DNA of 58,241 nt from Candidatus Limnocylindrales bacterium (GTDB taxonomy: Bacteria; Chloroflexota; Limnocylindria; Limnocylindrales; CSP1-4), in the NCBI GenBank assembly GCA_036559965.1, contig DATBSD010000091.1, positions 1-58,241 of the forward strand. The letters are read 5' to 3'. How positions within the stretch are numbered: the first letter of the stretch is position 1; each line of letters begins with the position of its first letter. Below the pieces are notes generated by a model. The model made no database searches and had not been told where the DNA came from. It was given only the letters and a program-made list of their open reading frames with translations. The position numbers and the translations under genes are program-made. This document shows, one piece after another, positions 340-46,668 of this stretch.

Positions 340-696
340 GTGACTGGACTCTGGTACGTCCTCGGCTTCGCCTTCGCCGGGTTCACGTTCGTGTTCATCA
401 CCATCGGCGCCAGCTGGCTGCTGACGCATCGCAGCCGTGGCGACCTTCACAAGGGCCTGCCCTACGAGTCGGGCATCGACACCTTCGGCGACACGTGGGG
501 CCGCTTCGGGCTCAGCTTCTACATCTACGCCCTGCTCTTCGTGGCCTTCGACATCGAGGTCATCTTCGTCTTCCTCTGGGCGCTCGTGTTCAAGGACATC
601 CTCGTCGGCGGCTTCCTGTCGATGCTCCTCTTCGTGCTCATCCTGCTCATCGGCCTGGGCTACGCCTGGCGGAAGGGCGTGCTGACGTGGAAGTGA
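340..696 (+). CDS. nuoA: NADH-quinone oxidoreductase subunit A
   Basis: GTG 340 is preceded by GAGGA. The product is 118 aa with three hydrophobic helices and the ND3/NuoA core LPYESGID...FDIEVIFVFLW. First gene of a tightly packed nuo operon. Confidence 0.9.
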   Translation: MTGLWYVLGFAFAGFTFVFITIGASWLLTHRSRGDLHKGLPYESGIDTFGDTWGRFGLSFYIYALLFVAFDIEVIFVFLWALVFKDILVGGFLSMLLFVLILLIGLGYAWRKGVLTWK

Positions 697-1442
697 CGCC
701 CGAGCGCCCGGCGGACGAAGCAGCTGGCGGCCAGGCGGCCGACGCTGCCACGCCGGACCCGACCGAGCCAGTGGGCGTCGTCGCCACCGCGGGGTCAGTG
801 GCCGTCAGCGAGCCGATCCGCGTCGCCAACACCGTCTGGACGCCGGCTGACCCGCAGGCGTATCTCGGCGGCCGTGTGCCGACGGTCGCGCACCTGGCCG
901 AGATCGAGGCCGACTACGACCGATCGGACAACGCCCGCTGGTCGGGGGCGCTCGAGGTCATCCCCACGACGGCCGACTATGTGCTCGATCTCATCCGCGT
1001 CAACAGCCTCTGGCCGCTCCTCTCCGGCCTGGCGTGCTGCGCGATGGAGATGATGTCGGCGGCCACGTCGGTCAACGACATGGACCGCTTCGGCATGTTC
1101 CCCTTCCGGGCCAGCCCCCGCCAGGCCGACGTGCTCATCGTGGCGGGCACGTTGACGACCAAGATGGCCGGCCCGCTCATCCGGCTCTGGGAGCAGATGC
1201 CGGAGCCCAAGTGGTGCGTGGCGATGGGCGACTGCACCTGCTCGGGCGGCCGCTACAAGCGCTCCTACGCGACGATCCAGGGCATCGATCGCGTGATGCC
1301 CGTCGACGTCTACGTGCCCGGCTGCCCGCCCCGGCCGGAGGGCCTCATCTACGGCATGCTCAAGCTCCAGCAGCTGATCATGGAGCGTCGCGGCCACTGG
1401 CGCGATCGGGTCATCGGACCGACCGTCCCGGACGGCGTCTGA
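687..1442 (+). CDS. nuoB: NADH-quinone oxidoreductase subunit B (N2 cluster subunit) with a long N-terminal extension
   Basis: Lies in the 3' part of track ORF 495..1442. GTG 687 (or 693) overlaps the nuoA stop. Conserved motifs GLACCAMEM, GDCTCSGG and VPGCPPRPE are present. About 95 aa of Ala/Pro/Thr-rich sequence precede the conserved core, so the exact start is uncertain. Confidence 0.85.
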   Translation: MEVTPERPADEAAGGQAADAATPDPTEPVGVVATAGSVAVSEPIRVANTVWTPADPQAYLGGRVPTVAHLAEIEADYDRSDNARWSGALEVIPTTADYVLDLIRVNSLWPLLSGLACCAMEMMSAATSVNDMDRFGMFPFRASPRQADVLIVAGTLTTKMAGPLIRLWEQMPEPKWCVAMGDCTCSGGRYKRSYATIQGIDRVMPVDVYVPGCPPRPEGLIYGMLKLQQLIMERRGHWRDRVIGPTVPDGV

Positions 1443-1584
1443 GCAGGCGGAAGGAGCCCCGGCCATCGACACCGCGCTCAAGCGCCGCCTGGAGACCGCT
1501 TTCGCTGCGCAGCTGGCGGGCCCCGTCACGCAGCGCCACGACACGACCGAGATCCGCGTCACGGCCGGCGATGCCGCACAGGTC

Positions 1585-2013
1585 ATGCGCACGCTCCACG
1601 ACGACCCGACGTTCCGCTTCCGCCTGCTGGCTGACATCAGCGGCGTGGATACGGGCACGACGATGCAGGTCGTCTACCACGTCTGGTCCGACACGACGCC
1701 CGACTGGCTGCGCGTCATCGTCGTCGACCTCGAGCGCGACGACCCGCGCTGTCCCTCGATCACCTTCCTCTGGAAGGGCGCCGAGTGGGGCGAGCGCGAG
1801 GCCTACGACATGTTCGGCATCATCTTCGAGGGCAACCGCGACCTGCGCCGCATCTACATGCCGCCCGACTACGTGAGCTTCCCCCTGCGCAAGGACTTCC
1901 TGCTGCCGGACGACGCGTCGCGCTCGCCGGGCATGGGCATCCGACACATGGAGCAGGCTGCGGCGGCACCGTCGACGGCCGGCGCCTCGCTCCGCCAGGC
2001 CAGGACGGACTGA
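1585..2013 (+). CDS. nuoC: NADH-quinone oxidoreductase subunit C (30-kDa subunit); true start probably upstream at a non-canonical codon
   Basis: Motifs FRFRLLADISGVD, WKGAEWGEREAYDMFGIIFEGN and LRRIYMP are present. The first ATG/GTG (1585) leaves only about 10 aa before the FRF..L.D..GVD motif. The in-frame upstream translation (IDTALKRRLETAFAAQLAGPVTQRHDTTEIRVTAGDAAQV) resembles the missing N-terminal strands. AAGGAG lies at 1451-1456. Confidence 0.7.
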   Translation: MRTLHDDPTFRFRLLADISGVDTGTTMQVVYHVWSDTTPDWLRVIVVDLERDDPRCPSITFLWKGAEWGEREAYDMFGIIFEGNRDLRRIYMPPDYVSFPLRKDFLLPDDASRSPGMGIRHMEQAAAAPSTAGASLRQARTD

Positions 2014-2015
2014 CC

Positions 2016-3242
2016 ATGGCGACCGAGCCGCAGACGCGCATCCGCTCGCTCGACGACCCGCTGCTCATGGTCGACACGCCGGCGACCATCTACGACGCCG
2101 TCCCGCCCTACCCGCCGCGAACGGAGCGCGAGGCCGAGTTCTACCACCTGCGCGAAGGCGAGATGCTCGTCAACCTCGGGCCGCAGCATCCCTCGACGCA
2201 CGGCGTCCTGCGTGTCGTGCTGAAGATCGACGGCGAGCGCGTCGTGGATCTCGATCCCGTCCTCGGCTACCTCCACCGGGGCGTCGAGAAGATCTGCGAG
2301 AACAGCGACTGGCATATGGTCGTCAGCCACTGTGACCCGCTCGAGTACATCGCCTCGATGTTCAGCGAGCTGGTGCCGGTCATGGCCGCCGAGCAGCTGC
2401 TCGATGTCAAGGTGCCCCGCCGCGCCGAGTACATCCGCGTCCTGGCCTGCGAGCTCAACCGCATCTCCAGCCATGCCTTGTTCATGGGCTGGCTGGCCCT
2501 CGACCTGGGCGGCCTGACGCCCATCCTCTACGGCTTCATCGAGCGCGACGAGATCGTCGAGATGCTGGCCGCGCTGACGGGCCAGAAGCTGCTCTTCAAC
2601 TACATGCGCATCGGCGGCGTCAACGGCGATCTGAACCACGAGTTCCTGAGCCGGCTGGGCGACTGGATGAGCCACGCCGGCCAGCGCATCGAGGACAGCC
2701 AGACGCTCATCAACGAGAACGAGATCTTCGTCAAGCGCACGCGCGGCCTGGGCGTCGTCGACCGCGAGACGGCGCTCCGCATGTGCCTCACCGGGCCGCC
2801 CCTGCGTGCCACAGGCATCCCCTACGACGTCCGCCGGGCCCATCCCTACGGCGCCTACCCGGAGCTCGAGTTCGAGATCCCGACCCGCGAGGAAGGCGAC
2901 TCCTACGCCCGCTATCTGCTTCACCTCGACGAGATCAAGCAGAGCATCCACATCATCGACCAGGTCCTCCACGAGATGCCCGACGGCCCGATCATGGCCA
3001 AGCTGCCGCGCCTCCTGCGGCCGCGGCCGGGCCGGGCATTCGCAGCCATCGAGAGCCCGCGCGGCCAGTCCGCCGTGTACGCCATGAGCGACGGCAGCGA
3101 TCAGCCCTTCCGGCTGCGCATCCACGACCCGTCGTACTTCAACCTCCAGACGGTCGGCCTGCTGACGCCCGGGCACCTCGTCGCCGACACGATGGCCATC
3201 ATGGCCAGCCTCGACCCGATCATGGGCGGCGTCGACAAGTGA
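2016..3242 (+). CDS. nuoD: NADH-quinone oxidoreductase subunit D (49-kDa subunit)
   Basis: ATG 2016 follows the nuoC stop after a 2-nt gap (internal start of track ORF 1785..3242). The product is 408 aa. Motifs include GPQHPSTHGVLR, RVLACELNRISSH and the C-terminal MASLDPIMGGVDK. Confidence 0.92.
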   Translation: MATEPQTRIRSLDDPLLMVDTPATIYDAVPPYPPRTEREAEFYHLREGEMLVNLGPQHPSTHGVLRVVLKIDGERVVDLDPVLGYLHRGVEKICENSDWHMVVSHCDPLEYIASMFSELVPVMAAEQLLDVKVPRRAEYIRVLACELNRISSHALFMGWLALDLGGLTPILYGFIERDEIVEMLAALTGQKLLFNYMRIGGVNGDLNHEFLSRLGDWMSHAGQRIEDSQTLINENEIFVKRTRGLGVVDRETALRMCLTGPPLRATGIPYDVRRAHPYGAYPELEFEIPTREEGDSYARYLLHLDEIKQSIHIIDQVLHEMPDGPIMAKLPRLLRPRPGRAFAAIESPRGQSAVYAMSDGSDQPFRLRIHDPSYFNLQTVGLLTPGHLVADTMAIMASLDPIMGGVDK

Positions 3243-4624
3243 GCGCGCTGTCGCGGCCGTGGAGCCGCCTGACGCTGGCGGGCAAGATCGTCCTGCCGCT
3301 CATGGCGCTGATGGCCGTGCTCACGCTGGCGCTCCTGGCCGGCGTGGCGCTGGGGCCCGTCCCGTTCGTGGTCGACATCGTGGCCGACACCATCGTCGCC
3401 AACCTGGGCATCGTCCGCTTCGTCGGCGCGGTCACGGCCGTGCTCCTGCTGACCGTGCCGACCGCGTTCATCATCATCTTCCTGGAGATGAAGGTCATCG
3501 CCCTGATGAACCTTCGCCTGGGGCCCAACCGGGTCGGCCCGTGGGGCACGCTCCAGTCGGCCATCCACGGCTTCAAGGTGCTGGGCAAAGAGGACTTCAC
3601 GCCGACCGGCGCCGACGTGCCGGTCTTCACCCTCGCGCCGGCGGTGGTCTACCTGGCGAGCGTGATGTGCTTCCTGGTGCTGCCCTTCGCACCGGGCATC
3701 GTGGGCGCTGACATGAACATCGGGCTGCTCTATTTCTTCGCCGTCGGCAGCCTCGGCGTGGTGGGCCTGATGATGGCCGGCTGGTCGAGCTTCAACAAGT
3801 ACAGCCTGCTGGGCGGCCTGCGCGCGGCGGCCCAGATCATCAGCTACGAGATCCCGCTGACGCTCTCGATCGTCGGCGTCGTGCTCCTGGCGGGCACGCT
3901 CAGCCTCAACAGCATCGTGCTCGAGCAGAGCGGCAGCTTCCTCGACTGGTTCATCTTCCGCCAGCCGCTCGGCTTCCTCATCTTCTTCATCGCCGCCACC
4001 GCCGAGGGCGCCCGGACGCCGTTCGACCTGACCGAGGCGGACTCGGAGATCGTGGCCGGCTTCGCGACCGAGTACAGCGGCATGCGCTTCGGCTTCTTCT
4101 TCTTCGCCGAGTACGTCAACGTCTTCCTGCTCTCGGCACTGACGGTCGTCCTCTTCTTCGGCGGCTGGAACGCCCCGCTCGACCTGGGCGGCATGCTCGC
4201 CGCCATCGGCCTCTCGGTCGACCCCACGCTGGCGCCCGGCCAGCTCGGCATCGGGCTGCTCCTGGGCGTCGGCCTCGTGCCGCCCATCGTCATCCTGCTG
4301 CTCGCCCTGCCCATCTGGGCACTCCGCAGCGACGTCAAGTTCTGGCAGGCCCTGGTCATCGGCTTCCTGCTCTTCAACGTGCTCGTGGTCGGCGCCCTCA
4401 TGCTCTGGGCGACGGCCAGCTTCGAGGCCGTCGAGGGCCTCATCTGGTTCTTCGCCAAGACCTACGTCTTCGTGGTCGTCTTCGTGTGGATGCGCGGCAC
4501 GCTGCCACGCGTGCGCATCGATCAGCTCATGGGCTTCGCCTGGAAGTGGCTGCTGCCCGCCGCCCTCATCAACCTCTTCTTGACGGCGGCCGCCATCGTC
4601 GTCGTCGACTCGGTCCGCGGGTGA
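3239..4624 (+). CDS. nuoH: NADH-quinone oxidoreductase subunit H
   Basis: GTG 3239 overlaps the nuoD stop (GTGA). Polytopic membrane protein. ND1/NuoH motifs LRLGPNRVGPWGTLQS, GWSSFNKYSLLGGLRAAAQ.ISYE and ATEYSGMRFGFFFFAEY are present. There is an extra N-terminal helix; an alternative ATG lies at 3302. Confidence 0.85.
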   Translation: MSALSRPWSRLTLAGKIVLPLMALMAVLTLALLAGVALGPVPFVVDIVADTIVANLGIVRFVGAVTAVLLLTVPTAFIIIFLEMKVIALMNLRLGPNRVGPWGTLQSAIHGFKVLGKEDFTPTGADVPVFTLAPAVVYLASVMCFLVLPFAPGIVGADMNIGLLYFFAVGSLGVVGLMMAGWSSFNKYSLLGGLRAAAQIISYEIPLTLSIVGVVLLAGTLSLNSIVLEQSGSFLDWFIFRQPLGFLIFFIAATAEGARTPFDLTEADSEIVAGFATEYSGMRFGFFFFAEYVNVFLLSALTVVLFFGGWNAPLDLGGMLAAIGLSVDPTLAPGQLGIGLLLGVGLVPPIVILLLALPIWALRSDVKFWQALVIGFLLFNVLVVGALMLWATASFEAVEGLIWFFAKTYVFVVVFVWMRGTLPRVRIDQLMGFAWKWLLPAALINLFLTAAAIVVVDSVRG

Positions 4625-4628
4625 GGCC

Positions 4629-5462
4629 ATGAACATGCTGCCGGGCAAGGGCATCTTCAAGGGCATGGCCCTGACGCTCCTGCGCATGGTCCAGCCCAAG
4701 GCGACCATCCAGTACCCCGAGGTCGTCAACGACATCTCGCCCAGGCACCGTGGCCGGCTGCAGCTGCTCTACGACGAGCACGGCACGCTCAAATGCGAGA
4801 CCTGCTTCCAGTGCGCCCAGGCCTGTCCCATCGAGTGCATCGACATGGGCGGCGTCGACACCAAGGACCGCTTCCACATCCACTGGGGCGCACCGGAGCA
4901 GTACGCCGAGCGGCGCGAGGAATCCGCCCTGCGGCGATCCGGACGGCCGGTGCCCGATCGCTCGTTCGACCCCTTCCTGGGCATCGACACGGCGGCGCTC
5001 GATCGGATCCTCGACGAGGAGGGCTACGACCCGGCGCGCATGCTGACCATCCTGACGCGCACCCAGGAAGCCTACGGCCACCTGCCGGTCGCCGCGCTCA
5101 AGCACATCAGCCACGCGACAGGTGCCTGGTACGCCGAGATCTACGGCACCGCCAGCTCCTACGACCACTTCCGCCTCGACCCACCGAGCGGCCACGTCTT
5201 CGGCGTCTGCCGCTGTCCCGCGTGCCAGTTCCGCGGCAGCGGCCGGATCGTGGCCGCCCTGGAGGACGCGCTCGCCACGACGCTCGGCCAGAGCAGCCCG
5301 GAAGGCGCCGTGCGGCTCGAGGCGATCGACTGCCACGGCGAGGCCGGGACGCAGCCGCTCGTGCTGCTCGACGGTGAGCGGGTCGCCGACGCCTCACCAG
5401 CCGCCGTCGTCGCCAGCGCCACCGCGCTGCGTGCCGCCCACGCCGAGGCGGGGCACGCATGA
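4629..5462 (+). CDS. fusion protein: NuoI-like N-terminal half (single CxxCxxCxxxCP motif) joined to a NuoE-like thioredoxin-fold domain
   Basis: The N-terminus KATIQYPEVVNDISPRHRGRLQLL...CETCFQCAQACPIECIDM matches NuoI up to and including the first ferredoxin motif; the second motif is absent. The C-terminal half ARMLTILTRTQEAYGHLPVAALKHIS...VFGVCRCPACQFRGSGRIVAALED...LEAIDCHGEAGTQPLVLLDG matches the NuoE/24-kDa 2Fe-2S fold, with an altered Cys pattern. Confidence 0.8.
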   Translation: MNMLPGKGIFKGMALTLLRMVQPKATIQYPEVVNDISPRHRGRLQLLYDEHGTLKCETCFQCAQACPIECIDMGGVDTKDRFHIHWGAPEQYAERREESALRRSGRPVPDRSFDPFLGIDTAALDRILDEEGYDPARMLTILTRTQEAYGHLPVAALKHISHATGAWYAEIYGTASSYDHFRLDPPSGHVFGVCRCPACQFRGSGRIVAALEDALATTLGQSSPEGAVRLEAIDCHGEAGTQPLVLLDGERVADASPAAVVASATALRAAHAEAGHA

Positions 5463-6778
5463 CGACTCGCGTCCTGGCGGGCGACAAGTCCTGGCCCCGC
5501 GTCCTGCTCGGCCGGACCTACGATCCCGATGCCGGCCTCGCCGCTGCCGAGCGAGCGGGCGCCTGGAAAGCGTGGCGGACGGCTGCCGCCGACCTCGGGC
5601 CGGAGGCGCTCATCCGCCTCGTCGGCGAATCCGGCCTCCGCGGTCGTGGCGGCGGCGGCTATCCGACGGCCGACAAGTGGCGGACCTGTCGCGCGCAGCC
5701 GTCCCCGACGCGCTACGTCGTCGCCAACGGCTACGAGGCCGACCCCGGCTCGGCGACCGATCGGACGCTCATGGCGAGCGACCCACACGGTGTGCTCGAA
5801 GGCGTCGCCCTGGCCGCCTACGCCGTCGGGGCACGGCGTGCCATCGTCGCCGTCCGAGCCGACGCGACGGTCGCCATCCGGCGTCTCGCGGCCGCCCTGC
5901 GGGAGGCCGAGGAGGCCGGCCTCATCGGCAGCGACGGGCTGGCCCGTGGCATCGACATCCACATCGAGCTGCGCGAGCTGCAGGGCGCCTTCGTGGTCGG
6001 CGAGGAGACGGTCCTGCTGCGCGCCATCGAGGGCAAGCGCGCGATGCCCGACCAGCGACCGCCCTATCCCGCCGAGCGCGGCCTGTGGGATGAGCCGACC
6101 GTCGTCAACAACGTGGCCACGCTGGCGGCCGTGCCCTGGATCGTGACCAACGGCGCCGGCGCCTTCCGCAAGCTGGGCGCCGCCGAGGAGCCCGGCACGA
6201 CGCTCGTCCACGTCAGCGGTGCGGTCAAGGAACCAGGCATCCTCGAGGTGCCCACCGGCACGACGCTCAAGGCCATCATCAAGGCGGCCGGCGGCGCGAC
6301 CGGGACGACCAAGGCGATCCTCGTCGGCGGCCCGTCGGGCGGCTTCCTGCCGGCCGATGCGCTCTCGACCGTCTACGGCCGGGCGGCCCTCCACGAGGCC
6401 GGCGCCATCGTCGGGTCGGGCAGCATCCTGGTCGTCGACCAGTCCGCCTGCATCGTCGAGCTGGCCACGATGCTCGAGCGCTTCATGAGCGACGAGTCGT
6501 GCGGCAAGTGCATCCCCTGCCGCATCGGGACGCGGCGACTGGTCGAGATCGGCGAGCGCTTCACCGGCGGCCGGCCACGACCGACCGACGTGCAGCTGCT
6601 GGCCGACCTGTCGGCCGACGTCCGCGACGGCTCGCTCTGCGGTCACGGCATCACGGCGCCCAATCCGCTGACCAGCGGGATGCGATACTTCGGCGCGGAG
6701 TTCGACGCTCACATCACCCGGAGCACCTGCCCGGCCGGCATCTGCTCGCCGCTGCGCGTCGCCGGAGGCATCGCCTGA
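5459..6778 (+). CDS. nuoF: NADH-quinone oxidoreductase subunit F-like (FMN/NADH-binding 51-kDa subunit)
   Basis: The start is an ATGA overlap with the upstream gene. Motifs include GLRGRGGGGYPTADKW, a central SLBB-like region, ESCGKCIPCRIGTRRL and GSLCGHG (N3 4Fe-4S ligands). Confidence 0.9.
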   Translation: MTTRVLAGDKSWPRVLLGRTYDPDAGLAAAERAGAWKAWRTAAADLGPEALIRLVGESGLRGRGGGGYPTADKWRTCRAQPSPTRYVVANGYEADPGSATDRTLMASDPHGVLEGVALAAYAVGARRAIVAVRADATVAIRRLAAALREAEEAGLIGSDGLARGIDIHIELRELQGAFVVGEETVLLRAIEGKRAMPDQRPPYPAERGLWDEPTVVNNVATLAAVPWIVTNGAGAFRKLGAAEEPGTTLVHVSGAVKEPGILEVPTGTTLKAIIKAAGGATGTTKAILVGGPSGGFLPADALSTVYGRAALHEAGAIVGSGSILVVDQSACIVELATMLERFMSDESCGKCIPCRIGTRRLVEIGERFTGGRPRPTDVQLLADLSADVRDGSLCGHGITAPNPLTSGMRYFGAEFDAHITRSTCPAGICSPLRVAGGIA

Positions 6779-6781
6779 GCC

Positions 6782-9385
6782 ATGGCCGACCTGACGATCC
6801 GCCCCGACGCCGACGCCGCCCAGATGCTCACGTCACCGGCTGACCGCCTGCTCGACGTCCAGGCCCCGCAGCGACCCCTCGCGACGCCGGCCTTCACCAT
6901 CGAGGTCGACGGCCGCCAGGTGACGGGCCGCGAGGGACAGACCATCCTCGAGGTCTGCCGCGACAACGGCATCGAGATCCCGACCCTCTGCTACGAGCCC
7001 AAGCTGCCTGGCTTCGGCGCCTGCCGGATGTGCGTCGTCGAGGTCGAGGGCGAGGACCAGCCGCCCATCAGCTGCTCCCGGGCGTGCGAGCCGGAGATGG
7101 TCGTGCGCACGCAGACACCGCGCATCCGCCAGCTCCGCAAGACGAACCTCGAGCTCATCTTCAGCGACCACAACGCCTACTGCCTGCCGCCCTGCCAGAA
7201 CAAGTGCCCCAGCCACATCGACATCCCGGGCTTCCTGAAGGCCAATGCCGAGGGCGACTTCCGCGAGTCGGCGCGCATCTTCAAGCGCACCATCCCGTTC
7301 CCGAGCGTGCTCGGGCGGGTCTGCCCGGCGCCCTGCGAGGAGCACTGCCGGCGGGACGAGGTCGACGAGGCCATCGCCATCCGCGATACCCACCGTTACG
7401 CCGGCGACCAGGTCCTCAAGGCCCAGACGAAGGGCGTCAAGGCGCCCGTTCCGTTCGCGGTCCAGGCGCCGAGCGGCAAGCGGGCGGCCGTCATCGGCTC
7501 GGGTCCGGCCGGGGCGTCGGCCGCCTACTACCTGGCCATCGCCGGCCACGAGGTGACGATCTACGAGCGCGACCCGGCGCCGGGCGGCATGCTCCGCTAC
7601 GGCATCCCGCAGTACCGCCTGCCGAAGGACGAGGTCCTGGCGGCGGAGTACGAGGGCCTGGCCGACCTTGGTGTGAAGACGGTCTGCGACGCCGAGCTCG
7701 GGCGCGACTTCACCATCGACGACCTCCAGAACCAGGGCTTCGACGCCGTCACCGTCGCCATCGGCTGCTACGACACGAACGAATTGGGCATCCCGGGCGA
7801 GGATGCCGACGGTGTCATCGACGGCCTCGAGTACCTGCGCATCGCGACGCTCGGCCTGCCCTATCCGGGCCACGAGGGCACGCGCGTCGTGGTCATCGGC
7901 GGCGGCTTCACGTCGATGGACTGCACGCGCACCTCGGTCCGCCAGGGAGCCCGCGAGGTGACCCTCGTCTATCGCCGCGACATGAAGGACATGCCCGCCG
8001 CCAACGAGGTCCACGAGGCCATCGAGGAGGGCGCGCGGGCGATCTTCCAGGCCGCGCCGACGCGCGTCGTGACCGACGACCAGAACCGCGTCACGGGCGT
8101 CGAGTTCCAGCGCATGCGCATGGGCGCGCCGGATGCCTCCGGTCGGCGGCGGCCGGAGCCCCAGCCAGGCACCGAGTTCGTCATCGACTGCGATCGCGTC
8201 CTGCTGGCCATCGGCCAGGGTCCCGAGCTGGGTTGGCTGGCCAACGGCGCGGCCGGGGTCACGGCCAGCAAGCAGAAGCGACTGCAGGCCGACGGCGTGA
8301 CCTTCGCCACCGGGCGACCCGGCGTCTTCGGCAGCGGCGACGTGCGCATCGGCGCGGCGACCGTGGTCGAGGCAGTCGCCGAGGGCCGTCGCGCGGCCTA
8401 CGCCGTCGACGCCTACCTCCAGGGCCTCGACCTCGAGGCCATCCGCACGCGCCAGACGCTGGCCGAGCCGCAGCCCGAGTTCCTGTCCATCGTGCCCTAC
8501 ACCCAGGAGCTCAAGGAGCCCCGCATCCGGCTCCAGGCGATGCCCGCCGACGTGCGCAACCAGAGCTACGTCGAGTACGAGATCCCGTACACCCAGCAGG
8601 AGGCGATGGAGGAGTCCAAGCGCTGCCTCCAGTGCACCTGCGAGGCGATCGGCTTCTGCGATCTGCGGCGCCAGGGGATCGAGTACGGGACGACGCTCGA
8701 GACGCTCGAGCCCGCTCGCACGGGGATGTCGTTCCGGAGCGTCAGCGAGAACCGCTTCACGGGCGACAACCACGACTACATCCGCGACGACAGCCACGCC
8801 TTCATCCTGCGCGAGCCGTCACGCTGCATCGACTGCGGCCGCTGCGCCAACGTCTGCAAGGAGGTCGTTGGCGCCGCCTGCTACGACTTCATGCGCAGCG
8901 GCTTCGACACGCTCGTCACCACGCCGCTCGACATGAGCCTCAACACGACGCCGTGCGTCTCGTGCGGGCGGTGCGCCGAGACCTGCCCGACCGGCGCACT
9001 GATGCCCAAGCCACGCGTGCTCGAGAAGTACGAGGTCGACGAGAGCCGCTGCATCCTGTGCGGCATCTGCGTCGACGCCTGTCCCTACGACGCCCTTCGA
9101 TGCGGGCCGGACTTCGAGCTCGCCCACGAGAGCCGCGAGGAGCCGATGATCGACCTCATCGCCCTGGCGGCCATGGAGCGCGACACGGAGATGACCTACG
9201 TGCGCCGAGAGCGCGACTGGCTGGAGCGCGCCCAGGCCTCCGGTCGCCTGCTCGATCCCGGCCGCCTGCTGCCGATGTTGCCGCCGGGCGTGAACGGCAA
9301 CGGCCACGGCGACGGGCACCGCCACGACGGCGACGGCCACGGCGGCAACGGCCATGCCGGCGGCGGCCACGCCCATGCCCGTTAG
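6782..9385 (+). CDS. chimeric Fe-S flavoprotein: NuoG-type N-terminal 2Fe-2S domain, then a GltD-like NAD(P)H/FAD oxidoreductase module, then NuoG-type 4Fe-4S and ferredoxin motifs, then a His/Gly/Asp-rich tail; no molybdopterin-like domain
   Basis: 2Fe-2S domain: [53 protein letters not shown]. GltD-like module: [104 protein letters not shown]. 4Fe-4S region: [15 protein letters not shown]...[17 protein letters not shown] and [17 protein letters not shown]. Confidence 0.8.
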
Positions 9386-9397
9386 GGCGGTCGTCGC

Positions 9398-9940
9398 GTG
9401 ACGCTGCCGGAGACCATCCCGCTGCTCGGCTGGACCTGGAACGACCTGCTCTTCCTGATCCTCGCCGGCACGCTCGTGGGCACGGCGCTGATGGTCGTCC
9501 TGGGCCGCAACATCATCCGCTCGGGGCTCTGGCTCATCCTCTGCTTCGCGACGCTGGCCGGCCTCTACGCGCTGCTTGGCAACGCCATCGTGGCCGTCGC
9601 GCAGGTGCTCGTCTACATGGGCGCCATCGCCGTGCTCATCCTTTTCGCCATCATGCTCACCCAGACGAAGGGTGGACCGGCCGCGCTCGTCTTCCACCAC
9701 CAGGCCTGGGCGGCGGCGATCGCCGCCATCGTGATCGGCGGCCTGCTGGCCATCGTCGACGGCGCCAGCGGCTGGCCGCTGGCGGGCGAGTTCATGCGCA
9801 CGAGCACCGAGGCCGTGGCGGCGCTGCTCTTCGGCGACTACGTCCTGGCCTTCGAGATCGTCGGGGTGCTGCTGCTGGCGGCCGTCATCGGTGGTGTCTT
9901 CCTGGCCAAGCGCGACGACAGCCCGGAGACGCCTGGGTGA
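9398..9940 (+). CDS. nuoJ: NADH-quinone oxidoreductase subunit J
   Basis: GTG start. The product is 180 aa with five hydrophobic helices. The conserved segment [23 protein letters not shown] is present. Confidence 0.85.
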
Positions 9941-10248
9941 GCCAGACGCTGGAGTCATACCTCGCTCTGTCGGCCATCCTCTTCGCCATCGGCACCTTCG
10001 GCTTCCTCGCCCGCCGCAACGCCATCGCGATGCTCATGTCGATCGAGCTGATGCTCAACGCGGTCAACCTCTCGATCATCGCGTTCGGCGCCTTCATCCC
10101 GGAGCTCAACGGCGACGCAGCCGTCATCGCCCTCATGGTCATGGCCGTGGCGGCCGCCGAGGCGACCGTCGGGCTGGCCATCGTCATCGCCATCTACCGC
10201 AACCGCCGCACACCGCTGGTCGACGAGTACACGCAGATGCGGGAGTAG
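9937..10248 (+). CDS. nuoK: NADH-quinone oxidoreductase subunit K
   Basis: GTG 9937 overlaps the nuoJ stop (GTGA). The product is 103 aa: [45 protein letters not shown]...[12 protein letters not shown]. It is only the 3' end of the long track ORF 7030..10248. Confidence 0.9.
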
Positions 10249-10253
10249 CCGTG

Positions 10254-12224
10254 ATGGGCATGCCCACGCTCGTCACGCTGCTGCTCGTGCTGCCCATGGT
10301 GGGCTTCGTGCTGACCGCCCTCGTCGGACGGCGGCTGGCGACCCGGGCGGGCATCATCGCGGTGCCCATCATCGTGCTCACCTGGCTCATCGCGATGATC
10401 GTCGTCTACACCGCCCTGAGCGGCGGCTTCGGCGAGGAAGGCCTCCACTTCACGCTCTACGAGTGGATCCCGGCCGGCGAGTTCCGAGTGCCCTTCAGCC
10501 TCGCTGTCGACAACCTGACCGCATGCCTGCTCATCGTGGTCACGACCGTGGGCATGCTGGTGCATGTCTACTCGGTCGGCTACATGGCCCACGACCCGGG
10601 CCGCTGGCGCTTCTTCGCCTACCTCAACCTGTTCATGTTCAGCATGTTGCTGCTCGTCCTGGCGGGCAACTTCCTGCTCCTCTTCGCGGCCTGGGAGCTG
10701 GTCGGCCTGTCGAGCTACCTGCTCATCGGCTTCTGGTACCCCCGGCGCAGCGCGGCCATCGCGGCCAAGAAGGCGTTCCTCGTCAACCGCGTCGGTGACG
10801 TCGGCTTCGCGCTCGGCATCATGGCCATCTGGACGACCGTCGGGACACTCGAATTCGGCGAGGTCTTCGAGCTCCTGCCCGAGCAGTTCCACGCCGGCGA
10901 GATCGCGCCCTGGATGCTCTTCGGCATCGCGCTGCTGCTCTTCTGCGGCGCGGTCGGCAAGAGCGCCCAGTTCCCGCTCCACGTCTGGCTGCCGGACGCG
11001 ATGGAAGGCCCGACCCCGGTCAGCGCCCTCATCCATGCCGCGACGATGGTCAACGCGGGCGTCTACTTCGTGGCCCGCGCCAACCCCATCTTCAGCCTCT
11101 CACCGGCAGCCATGACGCTGGTCGCCGCCATCGGCATCTTCACGGCCATCCTGGCCGCCTCGATCGCGCTGACCCAGAAGGACATCAAACGCGTGCTGGC
11201 CTACTCGACGCTCAGCCAGCTGGGCTACATGTTCGCGGCCCTTGGGGTCGGCGCCTACATCGCGGCCATCTTCCACCTCATGACCCACGGCTTCTTCAAG
11301 GGCCTCCTGTTCCTCGGATCGGGGTCGGTCATCCACGCCGTCCATGAGGAGCAGGACATGGACCGCATGGGCGGCCTGTGGCGGAAGATCCCGGTGACCC
11401 ACTGGACGATGCTCATCGGTGCCCTGGCCATCGCCGGCATCCCGCCGCTGGCCGGCTTCTTCAGCAAGGACGAGATCCTCGGGGGCGCCTTCGAGAACGG
11501 CTTCTATCTGGTCTGGCTCATCGGGGCCTTCGTCGCCTTCCTGACGGCCTTCTACATGTTCCGCCTGATGGGCAAGACCTTCTACGGCCCGAGCCACGTC
11601 GATCCGACGGTCGAGCCCAAGATCCACGAGTCATCGCGCTGGATGACCATCCCACTCGTCCTGCTGGCCATCCCGTCCATCGCGCTGGGCATGGTCCTCG
11701 GGTTGCCGCTCGGGGAGGGCCTCATCGACCAGTGGCTGGAGCCGGTCTTCGAGCACGCCCAGGAGAACCTCGGCCTGACCCACGAGCCGGTCCAGCTGTT
11801 CGGCATCGACGGCCTGATCATCATCGGCAGCACCGCCGTCGCAGCATTCGGCATCGCCATCGCCATCCGCCTCTTCGGCTTCCACTGGCCGCTTCGCGGG
11901 AGCGACACGGCGCCGCGGCCGGAGCGGGTGGCGGAGCTCACGCAGCGCGCGCCCGCCCTCTATCGCGCGTCGTTCCATAAGTGGTGGTTCGACGACCTCA
12001 ACCACGTCCTGTTCGTGGTCATCGGCGGGCGCATCGCCAACGGCCTCTGGTGGTTCGACCGGGCCATCGTCGACGGCACCGTGAATGGCGTCGGCGACGT
12101 CGTCCAGGGCGCCGGACGCGACCTGCGCCGGATCCAGACCGGCCGGGTGCAGAACTACGCGCTGGGCATCGCCGTCGCCCTCATCGTCGTGGCCGTCTAC
12201 TTCGTGATCGCGGTCGCCGGCTGA
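10254..12224 (+). CDS. nuoL: NADH-quinone oxidoreductase subunit L
   Basis: ATG 10254 (GTG 10251 is an alternative) follows GGGAG. Antiporter-like subunit motifs: WELVGLSSYLLIGFWY, GKSAQFPLHVWLPDAMEGPTPVSALIHAATMV. A long C-terminal region is consistent with the lateral helix. Confidence 0.9.
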   Translation: MGMPTLVTLLLVLPMVGFVLTALVGRRLATRAGIIAVPIIVLTWLIAMIVVYTALSGGFGEEGLHFTLYEWIPAGEFRVPFSLAVDNLTACLLIVVTTVGMLVHVYSVGYMAHDPGRWRFFAYLNLFMFSMLLLVLAGNFLLLFAAWELVGLSSYLLIGFWYPRRSAAIAAKKAFLVNRVGDVGFALGIMAIWTTVGTLEFGEVFELLPEQFHAGEIAPWMLFGIALLLFCGAVGKSAQFPLHVWLPDAMEGPTPVSALIHAATMVNAGVYFVARANPIFSLSPAAMTLVAAIGIFTAILAASIALTQKDIKRVLAYSTLSQLGYMFAALGVGAYIAAIFHLMTHGFFKGLLFLGSGSVIHAVHEEQDMDRMGGLWRKIPVTHWTMLIGALAIAGIPPLAGFFSKDEILGGAFENGFYLVWLIGAFVAFLTAFYMFRLMGKTFYGPSHVDPTVEPKIHESSRWMTIPLVLLAIPSIALGMVLGLPLGEGLIDQWLEPVFEHAQENLGLTHEPVQLFGIDGLIIIGSTAVAAFGIAIAIRLFGFHWPLRGSDTAPRPERVAELTQRAPALYRASFHKWWFDDLNHVLFVVIGGRIANGLWWFDRAIVDGTVNGVGDVVQGAGRDLRRIQTGRVQNYALGIAVALIVVAVYFVIAVAG

Positions 12225-13762: not shown

Positions 13763-13767
13763 CGGGC

Positions 13768-35253: not shown

Positions 35254-35286
35254 CAGGCGACCGGCCTCCAAAGAACGAGCGACGAG

Positions 35287-45950: not shown

Positions 45951-46164
45951 CGATGGCACGACCTGTGTTCGGGGCCCAAGACGATAGATCGGCCATCCGG
46001 GCCCATATGGGCGGCGTCGGATGGCGTTGTCGACACCGGTCGACGAGCGGTCGTCGCGCTGCTCCTCCCGCATCCTGCCGGGTCGTCGGTGGCCGATCGC
46101 CACCTGCGTCCCGGCGCCGGAGGCCTGGGAAGCGTAGCACCGCGGTTGGGGCCTCGCAACGTGA

Positions 46165-46199
46165 ATCCGGCATACTCCCCGGGAGTATCCGTTCCGGAT
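46165..46199. promoter_or_regulatory. nested palindrome upstream of dnaA (ATCCGG..ATACTCCC-C-GGGAGTAT..CCGGAT)
   Basis: Perfect 8-1-8 palindrome at 46172-46188, flanked by ATCCGG (46165-46170) and CCGGAT (46194-46199). Lies about 220 nt upstream of the dnaA start. Confidence 0.4.
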
Positions 46200-46293
46200 C
46201 GCCCATCGGTCCGGGACGGCGGATGATGCCACGTCTCGCGGGCGCCTGCTGGCCGCTCGCGTCGGCGGTCCACCGGCCGGCTGGCGAGCACCT

Positions 46294-46668
46294 TCAGCCG
46301 ACAGGATCGCCCGGCATGGCGCCATCGTCGACGCCCAGGAGCGGGATGCGGCCGTCGGCCGGCAGGGCGCCCAGGACGAGCACCTCGGAGGCGAAGCCGG
46401 CGATGCGGCGAGGCGCGAAGTTGACGACGCAGACGACGAGACGGCCGATCAGCGACGCGGGCTCCGGATAGGTGCCCGGCAGCTGCGCCGACGATCGCCG
46501 CCGGCCGCCCGGGCCGAGGTCGACGACGAGCTTGTAGGCGGGCTTCCTGGCCTCGGGCAACGGCTCCGCGGCGACGATCCGTCCGATCCGCACGTCCAGC
46601 CGGCGCCAGTCGTCGATGCTGGCACTGCCGGGTGGCTGGAAGGACTCGCCGTCGCTGGCTGCGGTCAT
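46294..46668 (-). CDS. tRNA-binding (OB-fold, CsaA/EMAP-II-like) domain protein
   Basis: DVRIGRIVAAEPLPEARKPAYKLVVDLGP...SAQL......LIGRLVVCVVNFAPRRIAGF.SEVLVLG. Confidence 0.75.
   Translation of the reverse strand: MTAASDGESFQPPGSASIDDWRRLDVRIGRIVAAEPLPEARKPAYKLVVDLGPGGRRRSSAQLPGTYPEPASLIGRLVVCVVNFAPRRIAGFASEVLVLGALPADGRIPLLGVDDGAMPGDPVG

What the first reader, a model, noticed from the sequence alone, without database searches (positions are those of the whole stretch)
4629..5462. NuoI truncated to one ferredoxin motif and fused to a NuoE-like domain with a rewired Cys pattern
The 277-aa product starts like NuoI (KATIQYPE...PRHRGRL...CETCFQCAQACP) and then continues IECIDMGG. The second CxxCxxCxxxCP motif is missing. 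In NuoI each 4Fe-4S cluster (N6a and N6b) takes three Cys from one motif and one from the other, so a single motif cannot ligate the canonical pair. From about aa 125 (nt 5001 onward) the sequence becomes NuoE-like. Its Cys pattern is C-R-C-P-A-C ... C-H-G-E-A-G instead of C-x4-C ... C-x3-C: the fourth canonical Cys is lost and an extra Cys appears in the first motif. The other two forward frames across 4750-5377 contain no hidden ferredoxin motif, so a simple frameshift does not explain it. The result would covalently tether an N-module subunit to the Q-module connector while removing part of the conserved Fe-S wire.
Basis: partly seen in the sequence, partly recalled or inferred. Interest (0 to 1): 0.7.

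Follow-up and report, generated by a model that had tools for sequence, protein, structure and literature searches.

The report
Complex I subunit NuoI split by insertion
The iron-sulfur subunit NuoI of this bacterium's respiratory complex I is not truncated: a three-gene NAD(P)H-dehydrogenase cassette sits inside its gene, so its two halves lie on two different proteins, an arrangement that I found conserved in hundreds of Chloroflexota genomes and described in no paper I could search.

Summary
ORF 4629-5462 (277 aa) has a NuoI N-terminal half with one CxxCxxCxxxCP motif, fused to a NuoE-like domain with C-R-C-P-A-C ... C-H-G-E-A.

The conclusion that part of the Fe-S wire is gone is wrong. 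The missing NuoI half is the C-terminal extension of the third gene downstream (ORF3, aa about 744-830, nt 9011-9271), just before nuoJ.

The operon reads nuoA-B-C-D-H-[NuoI-N::NuoE-like]-[NuoF-like]-[StnC/NfnA-like with GltD domain::NuoI-C]-J-K-L-M-N. A Stn/Nfn-type (Bfu-family) three-gene module lies inside nuoI. Joined in silico, the two halves align colinearly with solved NuoI (E 1.4e-22).

All 80 related loci examined show the same order. They are the best 80 of 542 confirmed matches in species-representative genomes, nearly all labelled Limnocylindria or Chloroflexota. All eight NuoI cysteines are invariant. Three more divergent families share the same junction, and so does a pyruvate-oxidoreductase/Bfu cluster.

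Most likely the halves reassemble into the N6a/N6b ferredoxin fold, which anchors and wires an NADH/NADPH-oxidising module to the quinone module. The rewired NuoE cysteine pattern is family-wide.

I found no published description. The closest concepts are the predicted Nuo-Bfu and Mbh-Bfu complexes.

The parts
340..4624 (+). nuoA (340-696), nuoB (687-1442), nuoC (1585-2013), nuoD (2016-3242) and nuoH (3239-4624), which encode the first part of the complex I core
   Evidence: ORF translations and coordinates. NuoB has the tandem-Cys 'GLACCAMEMM' and 'PGCPPRPE'. NuoD has 'QHPSTHG' and 'GYLHRGVEK' (read). Homologous genes lie in the same order in 80 loci.
4629..4889 (+). ORF1 aa 1-87: the N-terminal half of NuoI, made of the N-terminal helix, the first CxxCxxCxxxCP motif (C56, C59, C62, C66) and the first hairpin strand
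   Evidence: The ten best NCBIfam hits for the fragment aa 1-100 are all NuoI, e.g. TIGR01971 positions 1-68/121. It aligns with 8qby_I residues 18-82. The four Cys are invariant in 81/81 sequences.
4890..5000 (+). ORF1 aa 88-124: a conserved linker (EQYAERREESALRRSGRPVPD...) between the NuoI half and the NuoE-like domain
   Evidence: Many invariant columns: R96, R102, R103, G105, R106, V108, P109, D110, D120. AlphaFold2 predicts a helix at aa 91-103 but with low confidence.
5001..5462 (+). ORF1 aa 125-277: a NuoE/BfuC/StnA-like thioredoxin-like [2Fe-2S] domain with the rewired ligand pattern C194-x-C196-x2-C199 ... C235
   Evidence: PF01257 at 87 bits. Best solved matches are StnA 8oh5_A (E 6.5e-22) and NfnC 9bov_C. 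AlphaFold2 pLDDT is 84-95 and the top Foldseek hits are NfnC, HydC, FdsG and StnA.
5459..6778 (+). ORF2 (439 aa): a NuoF/BfuB-core flavoprotein (FMN/NADH site, N3 cluster) without the N-terminal [2Fe-2S] and C-terminal 2x[4Fe-4S] domains of bifurcating BfuB. Its start overlaps the ORF1 stop (ATGA).
   Evidence: Pfam Complex1_51K, SLBB and NADH_4Fe-4S. It aligns with 9bov_B residues 124-526 of 584 (E 2.7e-115) and StnB residues 125-527.
6782..9001 (+). ORF3 aa 1-740: a StnC/NfnA-like large subunit. It has a [2Fe-2S] domain (aa 38-112), a GltD-like FAD/NAD(P)H domain with two [4Fe-4S] clusters (aa 134-548), and a Fer4_Nqo3 two-cluster domain (aa 675-740; C682-692, C725-735).
   Evidence: Pfam and NCBIfam hits. 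It is colinear with 9bov_A residues 6-698 (E 1e-161) and StnC 8oh5_C residues 5-700 (E 1e-149). All Fe-S Cys are invariant in 56/56 sequences.
9011..9271 (+). ORF3 aa 744-830: the C-terminal half of NuoI, made of the second hairpin strand (LEKYEVD), the second CxxCxxCxxxCP motif (C757, C760, C763, C767), '[13 protein letters not shown]' and the C-terminal helices
   Evidence: The seven best NCBIfam hits for this fragment are all NuoI, e.g. TIGR01971 positions 71-117/121. It aligns with 8qby_I residues 93-143. In the 62-sequence C-terminal alignment, C757, C760, C763 and C767 are invariant (62/62). The rejoined sequence aligns with 8qby_I residues 18-143 at E 1.4e-22.
9284..9385 (+). ORF3 aa 835-867: a His/Gly/Asp-rich low-complexity tail (GNGH-type repeats ending HAHAR)
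   Evidence: Read. Similar tails occur in most family members. Function unknown.
9398..15246 (+). nuoJ (9398-9940), nuoK (9937-10248), nuoL (10251-12224), nuoM (12224-13762) and nuoN (13753-15246), which encode the rest of the membrane arm
   Evidence: ORF translations, coordinates, and the same order in the related loci.

Best explanation
The window carries an 11-subunit-type complex I operon (nuoABCDH-I-JKLMN). A three-gene Stn/Nfn-type (Bfu-family) NAD(P)H dehydrogenase cassette sits inside nuoI, in frame at both ends.

What the sequence shows. The first half of NuoI is the N-terminus of the NuoE-like subunit (ORF1). The second half is the C-terminus of the StnC-like subunit (ORF3), where it replaces the inactive FdhF-like domain of StnC.

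What I infer about assembly. On assembly the two halves complement each other to rebuild the 2x[4Fe-4S] NuoI fold (clusters N6a and N6b). In that fold each cluster takes three Cys from one motif and one from the other. The rebuilt domain would do two jobs. It would bolt the soluble dehydrogenase module onto NuoB/C/D/H without the large NuoG C-terminal domain that canonical complex I uses for docking. It would also complete the electron wire.

Proposed electron route (inferred). Entry is through FAD/NAD(P)H in the GltD domain of ORF3 and/or FMN/NADH in ORF2. Electrons then pass along the Fe-S chain of ORF3. Its last two-cluster domain ends only about 8 residues before the NuoI-C half. From there they go to N6a/N6b, then N2 in NuoB, then quinone, with proton pumping by NuoH and NuoJ-N.

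Bifurcation. In the Limnocylindria version the NuoF-like subunit lacks both bifurcation hallmark domains, and the NuoE-like cluster site is rewired. This version is therefore probably a non-bifurcating NADH/NADPH:quinone oxidoreductase. A sister family (locus L089) keeps the full bifurcating-type B subunit.
For: 1. Complementary halves. ORF1[1-100] and ORF3[741-830] each hit NuoI models best, and they cover non-overlapping parts of them: TIGR01971 positions 1-68 and 71-117 of 121. The rejoined sequence aligns colinearly with solved NuoI chains, e.g. 8qby_I residues 18-143/163 at E 1.4e-22.

2. Motif bookkeeping. The window has only three CxxCxxCxxxCP motifs. ORF3 motifs 1 and 2 (C682-692, C725-735) belong to the Fer4_Nqo3 two-cluster domain, which is colinear with StnC/NfnA. 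That leaves one orphan motif in ORF3 and one in ORF1.

3. Position. The two halves sit exactly where nuoI should be, between nuoH and nuoJ.

4. Conservation. The gene order is identical in all 80 loci, which are the best 80 of 542 confirmed matches in species-representative genomes. All eight NuoI Cys and all ORF3 Fe-S Cys are invariant.

5. The same junction recurs in three further divergent families (L089, L086, L088).

6. The same split NuoI-like pair flanks a Bfu cassette in a pyruvate-oxidoreductase cluster (L081). This shows the pair behaves as a unit.

7. Identity of the cassette. ORF1, ORF2 and ORF3 best match the A/C, B and large subunits of StnABC (8oh5) and NfnABC (9bov/9bp5, 9n5u). 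[quoted passage not shown]

8. AlphaFold2 on ORF1 alone folds the NuoE-like domain confidently (pLDDT 84-95) but not the NuoI half (pLDDT 29-41). That fits a half-domain that needs a partner, though it is weak evidence.
Against: - No direct evidence that the two halves associate or bind clusters.
- By sequence alone, ORF3 motifs 2 and 3 resemble an ordinary self-contained 2x[4Fe-4S] ferredoxin. Polyferredoxin matches span both motifs.
- Several features of the E/F-like pair look degenerate in this family, so the NADH/FMN entry may be impaired. The second N3 Cys is Thr or Ser in 56/70 relatives, although it is Cys in the window. The FMN-loop N-A-D-E is N-G-[FY]-E. The fourth N1a-type Cys is absent.
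- I could not check whether these genomes also encode an intact nuoI or a canonical nuoEFG elsewhere.
Confidence: 0.8

Rival explanations
1. NuoI is truly truncated to one motif, the canonical N6a/N6b pair cannot form, and part of the conserved Fe-S wire has been removed.
For: Within ORF1 itself there is only one motif, and no other frame of 4750-5377 holds one.
Against: The second NuoI half is encoded at nt 9011-9271 as the C-terminus of ORF3, with all four Cys invariant. The rejoined sequence matches full-length NuoI at E 1.4e-22.
Confidence: 0.03
2. An artefact or pseudogene. A frameshift, misassembly or recent disruptive insertion broke nuoI in this one assembly.
For: None beyond the unusual arrangement.
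Against: All 80 independent MAG or genome loci examined have the identical arrangement, with intact reading frames in nearly all of them. They include a complete chromosome (OY970306.1) and CSP1-4, and they are the best 80 of 542 confirmed matches in species-representative genomes. There are more than 2,800 homologous proteins, and the best-scoring ones are about 277 aa. Cys residues are strictly conserved. GC3 of 0.92-0.95 is typical of coding sequence here.
Confidence: 0.01
3. The two half-motifs do not pair with each other. ORF3 motifs 2 and 3 form an ordinary self-contained 2x[4Fe-4S] ferredoxin domain. The ORF1 NuoI-like piece is then only a membrane/Q-module anchor, with one cluster or none.
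For: The 20-residue spacing between ORF3 motifs 2 and 3 is typical of a ferredoxin, and polyferredoxins align across both motifs.
Against: - Motif 2 is already the partner of motif 1 in the Fer4_Nqo3 domain, which is colinear with StnC/NfnA.
- Motif 3 is flanked by NuoI-specific sequence and best matches NuoI models.
- The four Cys of ORF1 are invariant in 81/81 sequences and in three other families. That is unexpected for a vestigial anchor.
- The pair co-occurs even outside nuo operons.
Confidence: 0.1
4. A functional variant of the main explanation. The split NuoI reassembles, but the NuoE/NuoF-like pair is a degenerating scaffold. The real electron entry is NAD(P)H at the GltD-like FAD domain of ORF3, which would make this essentially an NADPH:quinone oxidoreductase.
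For: - All ORF3 cluster ligands are invariant in 56/56 sequences.
- The ORF2 N3 motif lacks its second Cys in 56/70 relatives.
- The FMN loop carries an aromatic residue in place of Asp.
- Both bifurcation hallmark domains are missing from ORF2.
- The NuoE-like site lacks its fourth Cys throughout the family.
Against: - The window's own ORF2 keeps all four N3 Cys and the glycine-rich FMN loop.
- ORF2 is still well conserved and scores 363 bits against the NuoF family model.
- The invariant Cys196, or the common Ser239, may replace the lost ligand.
Confidence: 0.25

Closest known systems
Canonical 14-subunit complex I (NuoA-N / Nqo1-14), e.g. Thermus thermophilus, Paracoccus denitrificans (8qby), E. 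coli (7awt)
   Same: All membrane and Q-module subunits are present (A, B, C, D, H, J-N). NuoB has the tandem-Cys N2 motif. NuoI sequence signatures are present. E-, F- and G-like subunits supply a flavin site and an Fe-S chain.
   Different: - NuoI is encoded in two halves on two polypeptides.
- The E/F/G-like genes lie between nuoH and nuoJ, not between nuoD and nuoH.
- The G-like subunit lacks the molybdopterin-like domain and carries a GltD-like FAD/NADPH domain.
- The NuoE-like cluster ligands are rewired.
StnABC / NfnABC electron-bifurcating transhydrogenases of the Bfu family (PDB 8oh5, 9bov/9bp5, 9n5u; PMC10482914)
   Same: There are three colinear subunits. ORF1's C-domain resembles StnA/NfnC. 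The ORF2 core resembles StnB/NfnB. ORF3 aa 40-766 are colinear with 9bov_A residues 6-698 (E 1e-161), including the [2Fe-2S] domain, the GltD domain and the two-cluster domain.
   Different: - Those enzymes are soluble.
- Their B subunit has an N-terminal [2Fe-2S] domain and a C-terminal 2x[4Fe-4S] domain, the hallmarks of bifurcation. Both are absent from ORF2.
- Their large subunit ends in an FdhF-like domain, replaced here by the NuoI C-half.
- Their A/C subunit has no NuoI N-half.
Predicted 'Nuo-Bfu' and 'Mbh-Bfu' membrane complexes (Schut et al. 2022, PMC9304861)
   Same: [quoted passage not shown]
   Different: - Nuo-Bfu is described as 14 subunits (A-N) in Deferribacteres, Proteobacteria, Planctomycetes and Nitrospirae.
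- The paper's main text contains none of the words NuoI, split, fusion or GltD.
- The Limnocylindria ORF2 lacks the ferredoxin-type domain that the paper used to define BfuB, so this family would not have been in that survey.
- I could not test whether Dehalococcoides Mbh-Bfu also splits its NuoI homologue.
11-subunit complex I-like enzymes with alternative input modules (cyanobacterial NDH-1 with ferredoxin; Fpo with FpoF; PMC3144371)
   Same: An A-D, H-N core is supplied with electrons at the NuoI end by a non-NuoEFG module.
   Different: In those enzymes the input partner docks non-covalently on an intact NuoI/NdhI/FpoI. Here the partner is covalently built into both halves of NuoI.

Membership tests
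NuoI (TIGR01971 / PRK05888) | N-terminal segment plus the first CxxCxxCxxxCP motif | tested here: met
   ORF1 aa 9-80 match NF004536 positions 13-84/180 (E 8e-15) and TIGR01971 positions 1-67.
NuoI (TIGR01971 / PRK05888) | Second CxxCxxCxxxCP motif and C-terminal segment on the same polypeptide | tested here: not met
   Absent from ORF1. Present instead in ORF3 at aa 744-830, matching TIGR01971 positions 71-117/121.
NuoI (TIGR01971 / PRK05888) | Whole-protein score above the curated cutoff (113 bits for TIGR01971) | tested here: not met
   Each half scores 47-51 bits. I did not score the rejoined sequence against the family model, but it aligns with solved NuoI at 83 bits, E 1.4e-22.
NuoI (TIGR01971 / PRK05888) | Gene located between nuoH and nuoJ in a nuo operon | tested here: met
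   Both halves lie between nuoH (ends 4624) and nuoJ (starts 9398), and likewise in the related loci.
NuoI (TIGR01971 / PRK05888) | Binds two [4Fe-4S] clusters (N6a, N6b) shared between the two motifs | not testable with these tools
   All eight Cys are invariant. Assembly in trans is inferred.
NuoE / thioredoxin-like [2Fe-2S] ferredoxin (PF01257) | Domain match above the Pfam gathering score | tested here: met
   87.3 bits against a cutoff of 24.8, over aa 125-261. The AlphaFold2 model matches NfnC, HydC, FdsG and StnA.
NuoE / thioredoxin-like [2Fe-2S] ferredoxin (PF01257) | Four Cys ligands in the pattern C-x4-C ... C-x3-C | tested here: not met
   C194, C199 and C235 are present. The fourth position is Ala in the window and Ser, Asn, Gly, Ala or His in 81/81 family members. 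An extra Cys196 is invariant.
NuoE / thioredoxin-like [2Fe-2S] ferredoxin (PF01257) | NuoE equivalog score (TIGR01958 cutoff 142 bits) | tested here: not met
   58.8 bits. The best models are formate dehydrogenase gamma and HoxE, also below their cutoffs.
Bfu family (HydABC / NfnABC / StnABC) | Adjacent genes for C/A-like, B-like and A/large subunits homologous to solved members | tested here: met
   Best solved matches are 8oh5 and 9bov chains for all three ORFs.
Bfu family (HydABC / NfnABC / StnABC) | B subunit with an N-terminal thioredoxin-like [2Fe-2S] domain and a C-terminal 2x[4Fe-4S] domain (bifurcation hallmark per PMC10482914 and PMC9304861) | tested here: not met
   ORF2 (439 aa) aligns only with residues 124-526 of the 584-aa 9bov_B and has no Fer4 or PF01257 hit. 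The sister family L089 does have both domains.
Bfu family (HydABC / NfnABC / StnABC) | Flavin-based electron bifurcation with ferredoxin | not testable with these tools
   Biochemical property.
Stn/Nfn-type large subunit (StnC/NfnA) | [2Fe-2S] domain, inserted GltD-like FAD/NADPH domain and two-cluster NuoG-like domain, colinear | tested here: met
   ORF3 aa 40-766 align with 9bov_A residues 6-698 (E 1e-161) and with NF009454 (E 1e-164).
Stn/Nfn-type large subunit (StnC/NfnA) | C-terminal FdhF/molybdopterin-like domain | tested here: not met
   The alignment to 9bov_A and 8oh5_C stops near residue 700 of about 1,175. ORF3 continues with the NuoI C-half instead.
Nuo-Bfu (Schut et al. 2022) | Bfu-type genes in the middle of a nuo cluster, replacing NuoEFG | tested here: met
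   Gene order; description.
Nuo-Bfu (Schut et al. 2022) | 14 separate subunits A-N, including an intact NuoI and a full BfuB | tested here: not met
   There are 13 genes, NuoI is split, and ORF2 lacks the BfuB extra domains.

The most novel reading that the evidence does not exclude
The split NuoI-like ferredoxin is a portable plug. One half sits on the small Bfu subunit and the other on the large one. This would let a Stn/Nfn-type NAD(P)H module be wired covalently into different catalytic partners.

The partners seen or suspected are the complex I core (four families found here), pyruvate:ferredoxin oxidoreductase (locus L081), and perhaps the Dehalococcoides 'Mbh-Bfu' hydrogenase.

In Limnocylindria this would give a proton-pumping complex I that takes electrons from NADPH as well as, or instead of, NADH. 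Run in reverse, it would use the proton-motive force to make NADPH. It would also record an acquisition of an N-module by the 11-subunit core that is independent of NuoEFG.
Probability: 0.35. Interest if true: 0.85.

Novelty: new variant of a known kind. Interest (0 to 1): 0.75.

Why it matters
Complex I is among the best-studied respiratory enzymes, and to my knowledge its seven-cluster electron wire and subunit set are treated as near-invariant.

This case shows a natural two-cluster ferredoxin domain encoded as two half-domains on different polypeptides, the result of a gene cassette sitting inside a gene. The arrangement is fixed across an abundant, uncultured soil and freshwater class (Limnocylindria) and in other lineages.

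If the halves reassemble as inferred, three things follow:
- It is a natural example of split-protein complementation used to dock and wire a redox module.
- It is a second, independent route by which the 11-subunit core acquired an NAD(P)H-oxidising module. That bears directly on the question of how the N-module was recruited.
- It predicts a complex I with an NADPH site, which would change how energy and redox budgets are modelled for these organisms.

There is also a practical point. The sources that name the first fusion product call it only 'NADH-quinone oxidoreductase subunit E' or 'NAD(P)H-dependent oxidoreductase subunit E'. nuoI may therefore look absent in metabolic reconstructions.

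Tried and rejected
1. AlphaFold2 on the in-silico rejoined NuoI without an alignment gave pLDDT 34, which is uninformative.
No paired or multimer prediction was possible.
3. AlphaFold2 on ORF1 with 30 homologues gives no coordinates, so I could not measure Cys-Cys distances in the rewired [2Fe-2S] site.
4. I could not name the organisms of the divergent families L082-L089. Exact look-ups returned no source names.
5. I ran nine literature searches on combinations of NuoI, NuoE, NuoG, NuoH, fused, GltD, Bfu, BfuABC, Limnocylindria, Chloroflexi, HoxEFU, 11-subunit and StnABC. None found a description of a split NuoI. The Nitrospina NUO-2 and the mbx-like complexes with GltD in place of NuoI are different things.
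6. Hidden-frame or frameshift explanation: rejected, since there are only three motifs in all six frames of the window.
7. P0216/P0297 first looked like another nuo-linked fusion, but it lies in a pyruvate-oxidoreductase/Bfu cluster. It turned out to carry the same split NuoI-like pair.
Full report
**Observation.** The ORF at 4629-5462 (+) encodes 277 aa. Residues 9-80 match NuoI family models, but only over the first half of those models. The matches are NF004536 positions 13-84/180 (E 8e-15) and TIGR01971 positions 1-67/121. They also match solved NuoI chains, for example Paracoccus 8qby_I residues 18-82. This part has a single motif, C56-x2-C59-x2-C62-x3-C66-P. Residues 125-261 match the thioredoxin-like [2Fe-2S] family PF01257 at 87 bits. 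Their cysteine pattern is C194-R-C196-P-A-C199 ... C235-H-G-E-A239. Aligned to StnA, A239 occupies the place of the fourth canonical cysteine. A six-frame scan finds only three CxxCxxCxxxCP motifs in the whole 58 kb window, and none is hidden in another frame of this gene.

**Surroundings.** The gene lies in a tight + strand operon:
- nuoA (340-696), nuoB (687-1442), nuoC (1585-2013), nuoD (2016-3242), nuoH (3239-4624)
- ORF1 (4629-5462), ORF2 (5459-6778), ORF3 (6782-9385)
- nuoJ (9398-9940), nuoK, nuoL, nuoM, nuoN (to 15246)

NuoB carries the tandem-Cys N2 motif. NuoD carries the QHPxxHG and GYLHRG signatures rather than hydrogenase NiFe ligands (read). The core is therefore a quinone-reducing complex I. 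There is no separate nuoI gene between nuoH and nuoJ.

**Where the missing half is.** ORF3 (867 aa) is a [2Fe-2S] domain, then a GltD-like FAD/NAD(P)H domain, then a Fer4_Nqo3 two-cluster domain. After these comes one further ferredoxin motif, C757-C767, flanked by '[10 protein letters not shown]' and '[18 protein letters not shown]'. NCBIfam already matched residues 745-791 to NuoI positions 71-117/121. Solved NuoI chains match the same stretch, for example 8qby_I residues 93-143.

Tested in isolation, ORF3[741-830] has NuoI as its seven best families, and ORF1[1-100] has NuoI as its ten best. The two cover complementary, non-overlapping parts of the same models. Joining ORF1[1-87] to ORF3[744-...] in silico gives one colinear alignment to 8qby_I residues 18-143/163 (E 1.4e-22). 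Plant, mammalian, E. coli, Thermus and mycobacterial NuoI align the same way. The break falls in the hairpin between the two cluster motifs, and both strands are retained ('DRFHIHWG' in ORF1, 'LEKYEVD' in ORF3).

**Is ORF3's last motif really NuoI?** The alternative is that it belongs to ORF3's own ferredoxin domain. ORF3 residues 40-766 are colinear with the large subunit of Caldicellulosiruptor NfnABC (9bov_A residues 6-698, E 1e-161) and with Sporomusa StnC (8oh5_C residues 5-700, E 1e-149). In those proteins the eight cysteines equivalent to C682-692 and C725-735 form the two-cluster NuoG-like domain. After residue ~700 those proteins continue into an FdhF-like domain. So ORF3's motifs 1 and 2 are partners of each other, and motif 3 is an orphan, just as ORF1's motif is. 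Together with the NuoI-specific flanks and the position before nuoJ, this makes the split-NuoI reading much better supported than a self-contained ferredoxin. Sequence alone cannot exclude the latter.

**What was inserted.** The three ORFs best match the three subunits of the Stn/Nfn-type members of the Bfu family.
- ORF1's C-domain matches StnA (E 6.5e-22) and NfnC. The Foldseek hits of the AlphaFold2 model agree.
- ORF2 matches NfnB and StnB (E 2.7e-115 and 5.4e-111), but only their core, residues about 124-526 of 584.
- ORF3 matches as described above.

[quoted passage not shown] In the window the FdhF-like domain is replaced by the NuoI C-half, and ORF2 lacks both hallmark domains.

**Not an artefact.** ORF1 has more than 2,800 homologues. 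The best 120 are 205-283 aa long (mostly about 277) and 62-100 % identical. A scan of one genome per species confirmed 542 matches, and the 80 best were kept. Nearly all are labelled Limnocylindria/Limnocylindrales or Chloroflexota/Chloroflexia MAGs, including CSP1-4 and a complete chromosome. All 80 loci show the same order: A-B-C-D-H-ORF1-ORF2-ORF3 (with the NuoI C-half)-J-K-L-M-N, as far as each contig reaches.

Cysteine conservation in alignments of these loci:
- ORF1 C56, C59, C62, C66: 81/81
- ORF3 C757, C760, C763, C767: 62/62
- all other ORF3 Fe-S cysteines: 56/56

The linker after the NuoI N-half is itself highly conserved.

**Beyond Limnocylindria.** An exhaustive profile-free search found full-length fusions at 28-40 % identity. 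Their contexts are:
- L089 (GCA_040769125.1; the P0195 family, more than 120 clusters): nuoABCDH, fusion (253 aa), full Bfu-type B subunit (636 aa, both hallmark domains), 824-aa GltD protein, nuoJKLMN.
- L086/L087: nuoABCDH, fusion, NuoF-like, 799-aa GltD protein.
- L088: nuoH, fusion, 1048-aa NuoF::GltD fusion, 265-aa HoxU-like protein, nuoJKLMN.

In each case the last protein before nuoJ (or before the operon end) finishes with '...CxxCGxCxxxCPTGA[LI], then 6-10 residues, then Y-x-L-D-x-S-x-C-I-[FY]-C..C...CP..AL...[FY]EL[AS]'. These C-terminal fragments again best match NuoI. L089 and L088 have canonical NuoE cysteines and a canonical FMN loop. The Limnocylindria version is therefore a trimmed derivative.

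A fifth context is not a nuo operon. In a pyruvate-oxidoreductase/Bfu cluster (L081), the small subunit carries an N-terminal half-motif that best matches NuoI positions 35-84/180. The large subunit carries '...[47 protein letters not shown]', best matching NuoI positions 69-118/121. That segment is followed by the PorB TPP domain. The split pair thus travels with the cassette.

**The rewired NuoE-like site.** Across 81 family members C194, C196 and C199 are invariant and C235 is present in 75. The canonical fourth position is never Cys: Ser in 53, Asn in 14, Gly in 8, Ala in 4, His in 1. The same C-x-C-x2-C variant occurs in the L086 family (P0203, P0268). P0268 also lacks the fourth Cys, whereas families with the canonical C-x4-C ... 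C-x3-C pattern lack the extra Cys. This co-variation suggests that C196, or Ser239, replaces the lost ligand. That is an inference. From my own knowledge, ligand swapping has been reported in thioredoxin-like [2Fe-2S] ferredoxins.

**Likely mechanism.**

*Shown.* A complex I core operon has nuoI interrupted in frame by a Stn/Nfn-like three-gene module. Both halves and all cluster ligands are under strong conservation.

*Inferred.* The halves complement in trans to rebuild the NuoI fold with N6a and N6b. In that fold each cluster needs cysteines from both motifs, so both polypeptides are required. This would anchor the module on the Q-module without the NuoG C-terminal domain and would complete the wire. 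Electrons would run from FAD/NAD(P)H (GltD domain) and/or FMN/NADH (ORF2), through the ORF3 clusters, to N6a/N6b, then N2, then quinone. The last ORF3 two-cluster domain ends only about 8 residues before the NuoI C-half.

Because ORF2 lacks the bifurcation hallmark domains, the Limnocylindria enzyme is probably non-bifurcating. Several ORF2 features look relaxed in the family. The second N3 Cys is Thr in 51 and Ser in 5 of 70 relatives, although the window keeps Cys. The N-A-D-E loop is N-G-[FY]-E. NADPH via the GltD domain may therefore be the main entry.

AlphaFold2 on ORF1 alone folds the NuoE-like domain well (pLDDT 84-95) but not residues 23-114 (pLDDT 29-41). This agrees with a half-domain but is weak evidence.

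**Comparison with the literature.** Schut et al. 2022 predicted 'Nuo-Bfu' complexes (14 subunits; Geobacter, Planctomycetes, Nitrospirae) and a Dehalococcoides 'Mbh-Bfu'. In both, the Bfu genes lie in the middle of the membrane-complex genes, and the Mbh-Bfu has one subunit with an unexplained extra flavin site. Their main text contains none of the words NuoI, split, fusion or GltD. Their definition of BfuB requires the ferredoxin-type domain that ORF2 lacks. The Nitrospina/Kuenenia NUO-2 and mbx-like complexes in which a GltD protein replaces NuoI are different arrangements. None of the nine full-text searches found a description of a split NuoI. Subscription-only papers are not covered by the library.

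**Verdict.** The feature is a new variant of a known kind: complex I with a Bfu-type input module. What sets it apart is a two-cluster ferredoxin subunit encoded in two halves around an inserted Stn/Nfn-like cassette.

Noticed in passing
L081 10001-15933 (contig ERZ25039462 contig_18644): A pyruvate-oxidoreductase/Bfu gene cluster carries the same split NuoI-like pair. One half-motif sits at the N-terminus of the NuoE-like subunit. The matching half sits between the two-cluster domain and a PorB TPP domain of the large subunit. The GltD part of that large subunit appears frameshifted in this contig (the '465-aa' ORF).
   Followed up: partly
window 6500-6520 (ORF2 aa 348-354) and related loci: The second Cys of the N3 [4Fe-4S] motif of the NuoF-like subunit is Thr in 51 and Ser in 5 of 70 Limnocylindria relatives. 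The window itself has Cys. In L086 it is the third Cys of the motif that is replaced, by Gly. The conserved N-A-D-E of the FMN loop is N-G-[FY]-E in this family.
   Followed up: partly
window 9284-9385 (ORF3 aa 835-867): A His/Gly/Asp-rich low-complexity tail (GNGH-type repeats ending HAHAR) closes ORF3. Tails of similar composition occur in most family members. Function unknown; metal binding is possible.
   Followed up: partly
L043, L045, L047, L068 (ORF3 homologues): In four loci the ORF3 reading frame runs on to 996-1091 aa. In L047 at least it runs into NuoJ-like sequence. This is either an ORF3::NuoJ fusion or a sequencing or frame problem.
   Followed up: no
L089 10774-12684 (GCA_040769125.1): A sister family of split-NuoI operons keeps a full bifurcating-type B subunit (636 aa, with an N-terminal [2Fe-2S] domain and a C-terminal 2x[4Fe-4S] domain) together with canonical NuoE cysteines. 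It could be a bifurcating or confurcating complex I. The organism could not be identified with these tools.
   Followed up: partly
L086 and L087: In this family the operon is nuoABCDH, fusion, NuoF-like, GltD protein, with no nuoJKLMN genes directly downstream on either contig. The membrane-arm genes must lie elsewhere or be absent.
   Followed up: no
window 1442-1585 and 1585-2013: nuoC as the longest ORF is only 142 aa, and a 140-nt gap follows nuoB. This is shorter than the 161-164 aa NuoC genes called in loci L082-L089. The start site was not examined.
   Followed up: no
window 29701-36069 (-): A 2122-aa ORF has protein O-mannosyltransferase (PMT, PMT_4TMC) domains only in its C-terminal third. 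The first 1,350 or so residues have no Pfam match.
   Followed up: no
window 44610-46322 (-): dnaA lies about 30 kb from the nuo operon, so the window is near the chromosomal replication origin. Other neighbours include trehalose-phosphatase, an AhpC/TSA-family redoxin, sortase, CorA, inositol-1-phosphate synthase and a VanW-like protein.
   Followed up: no
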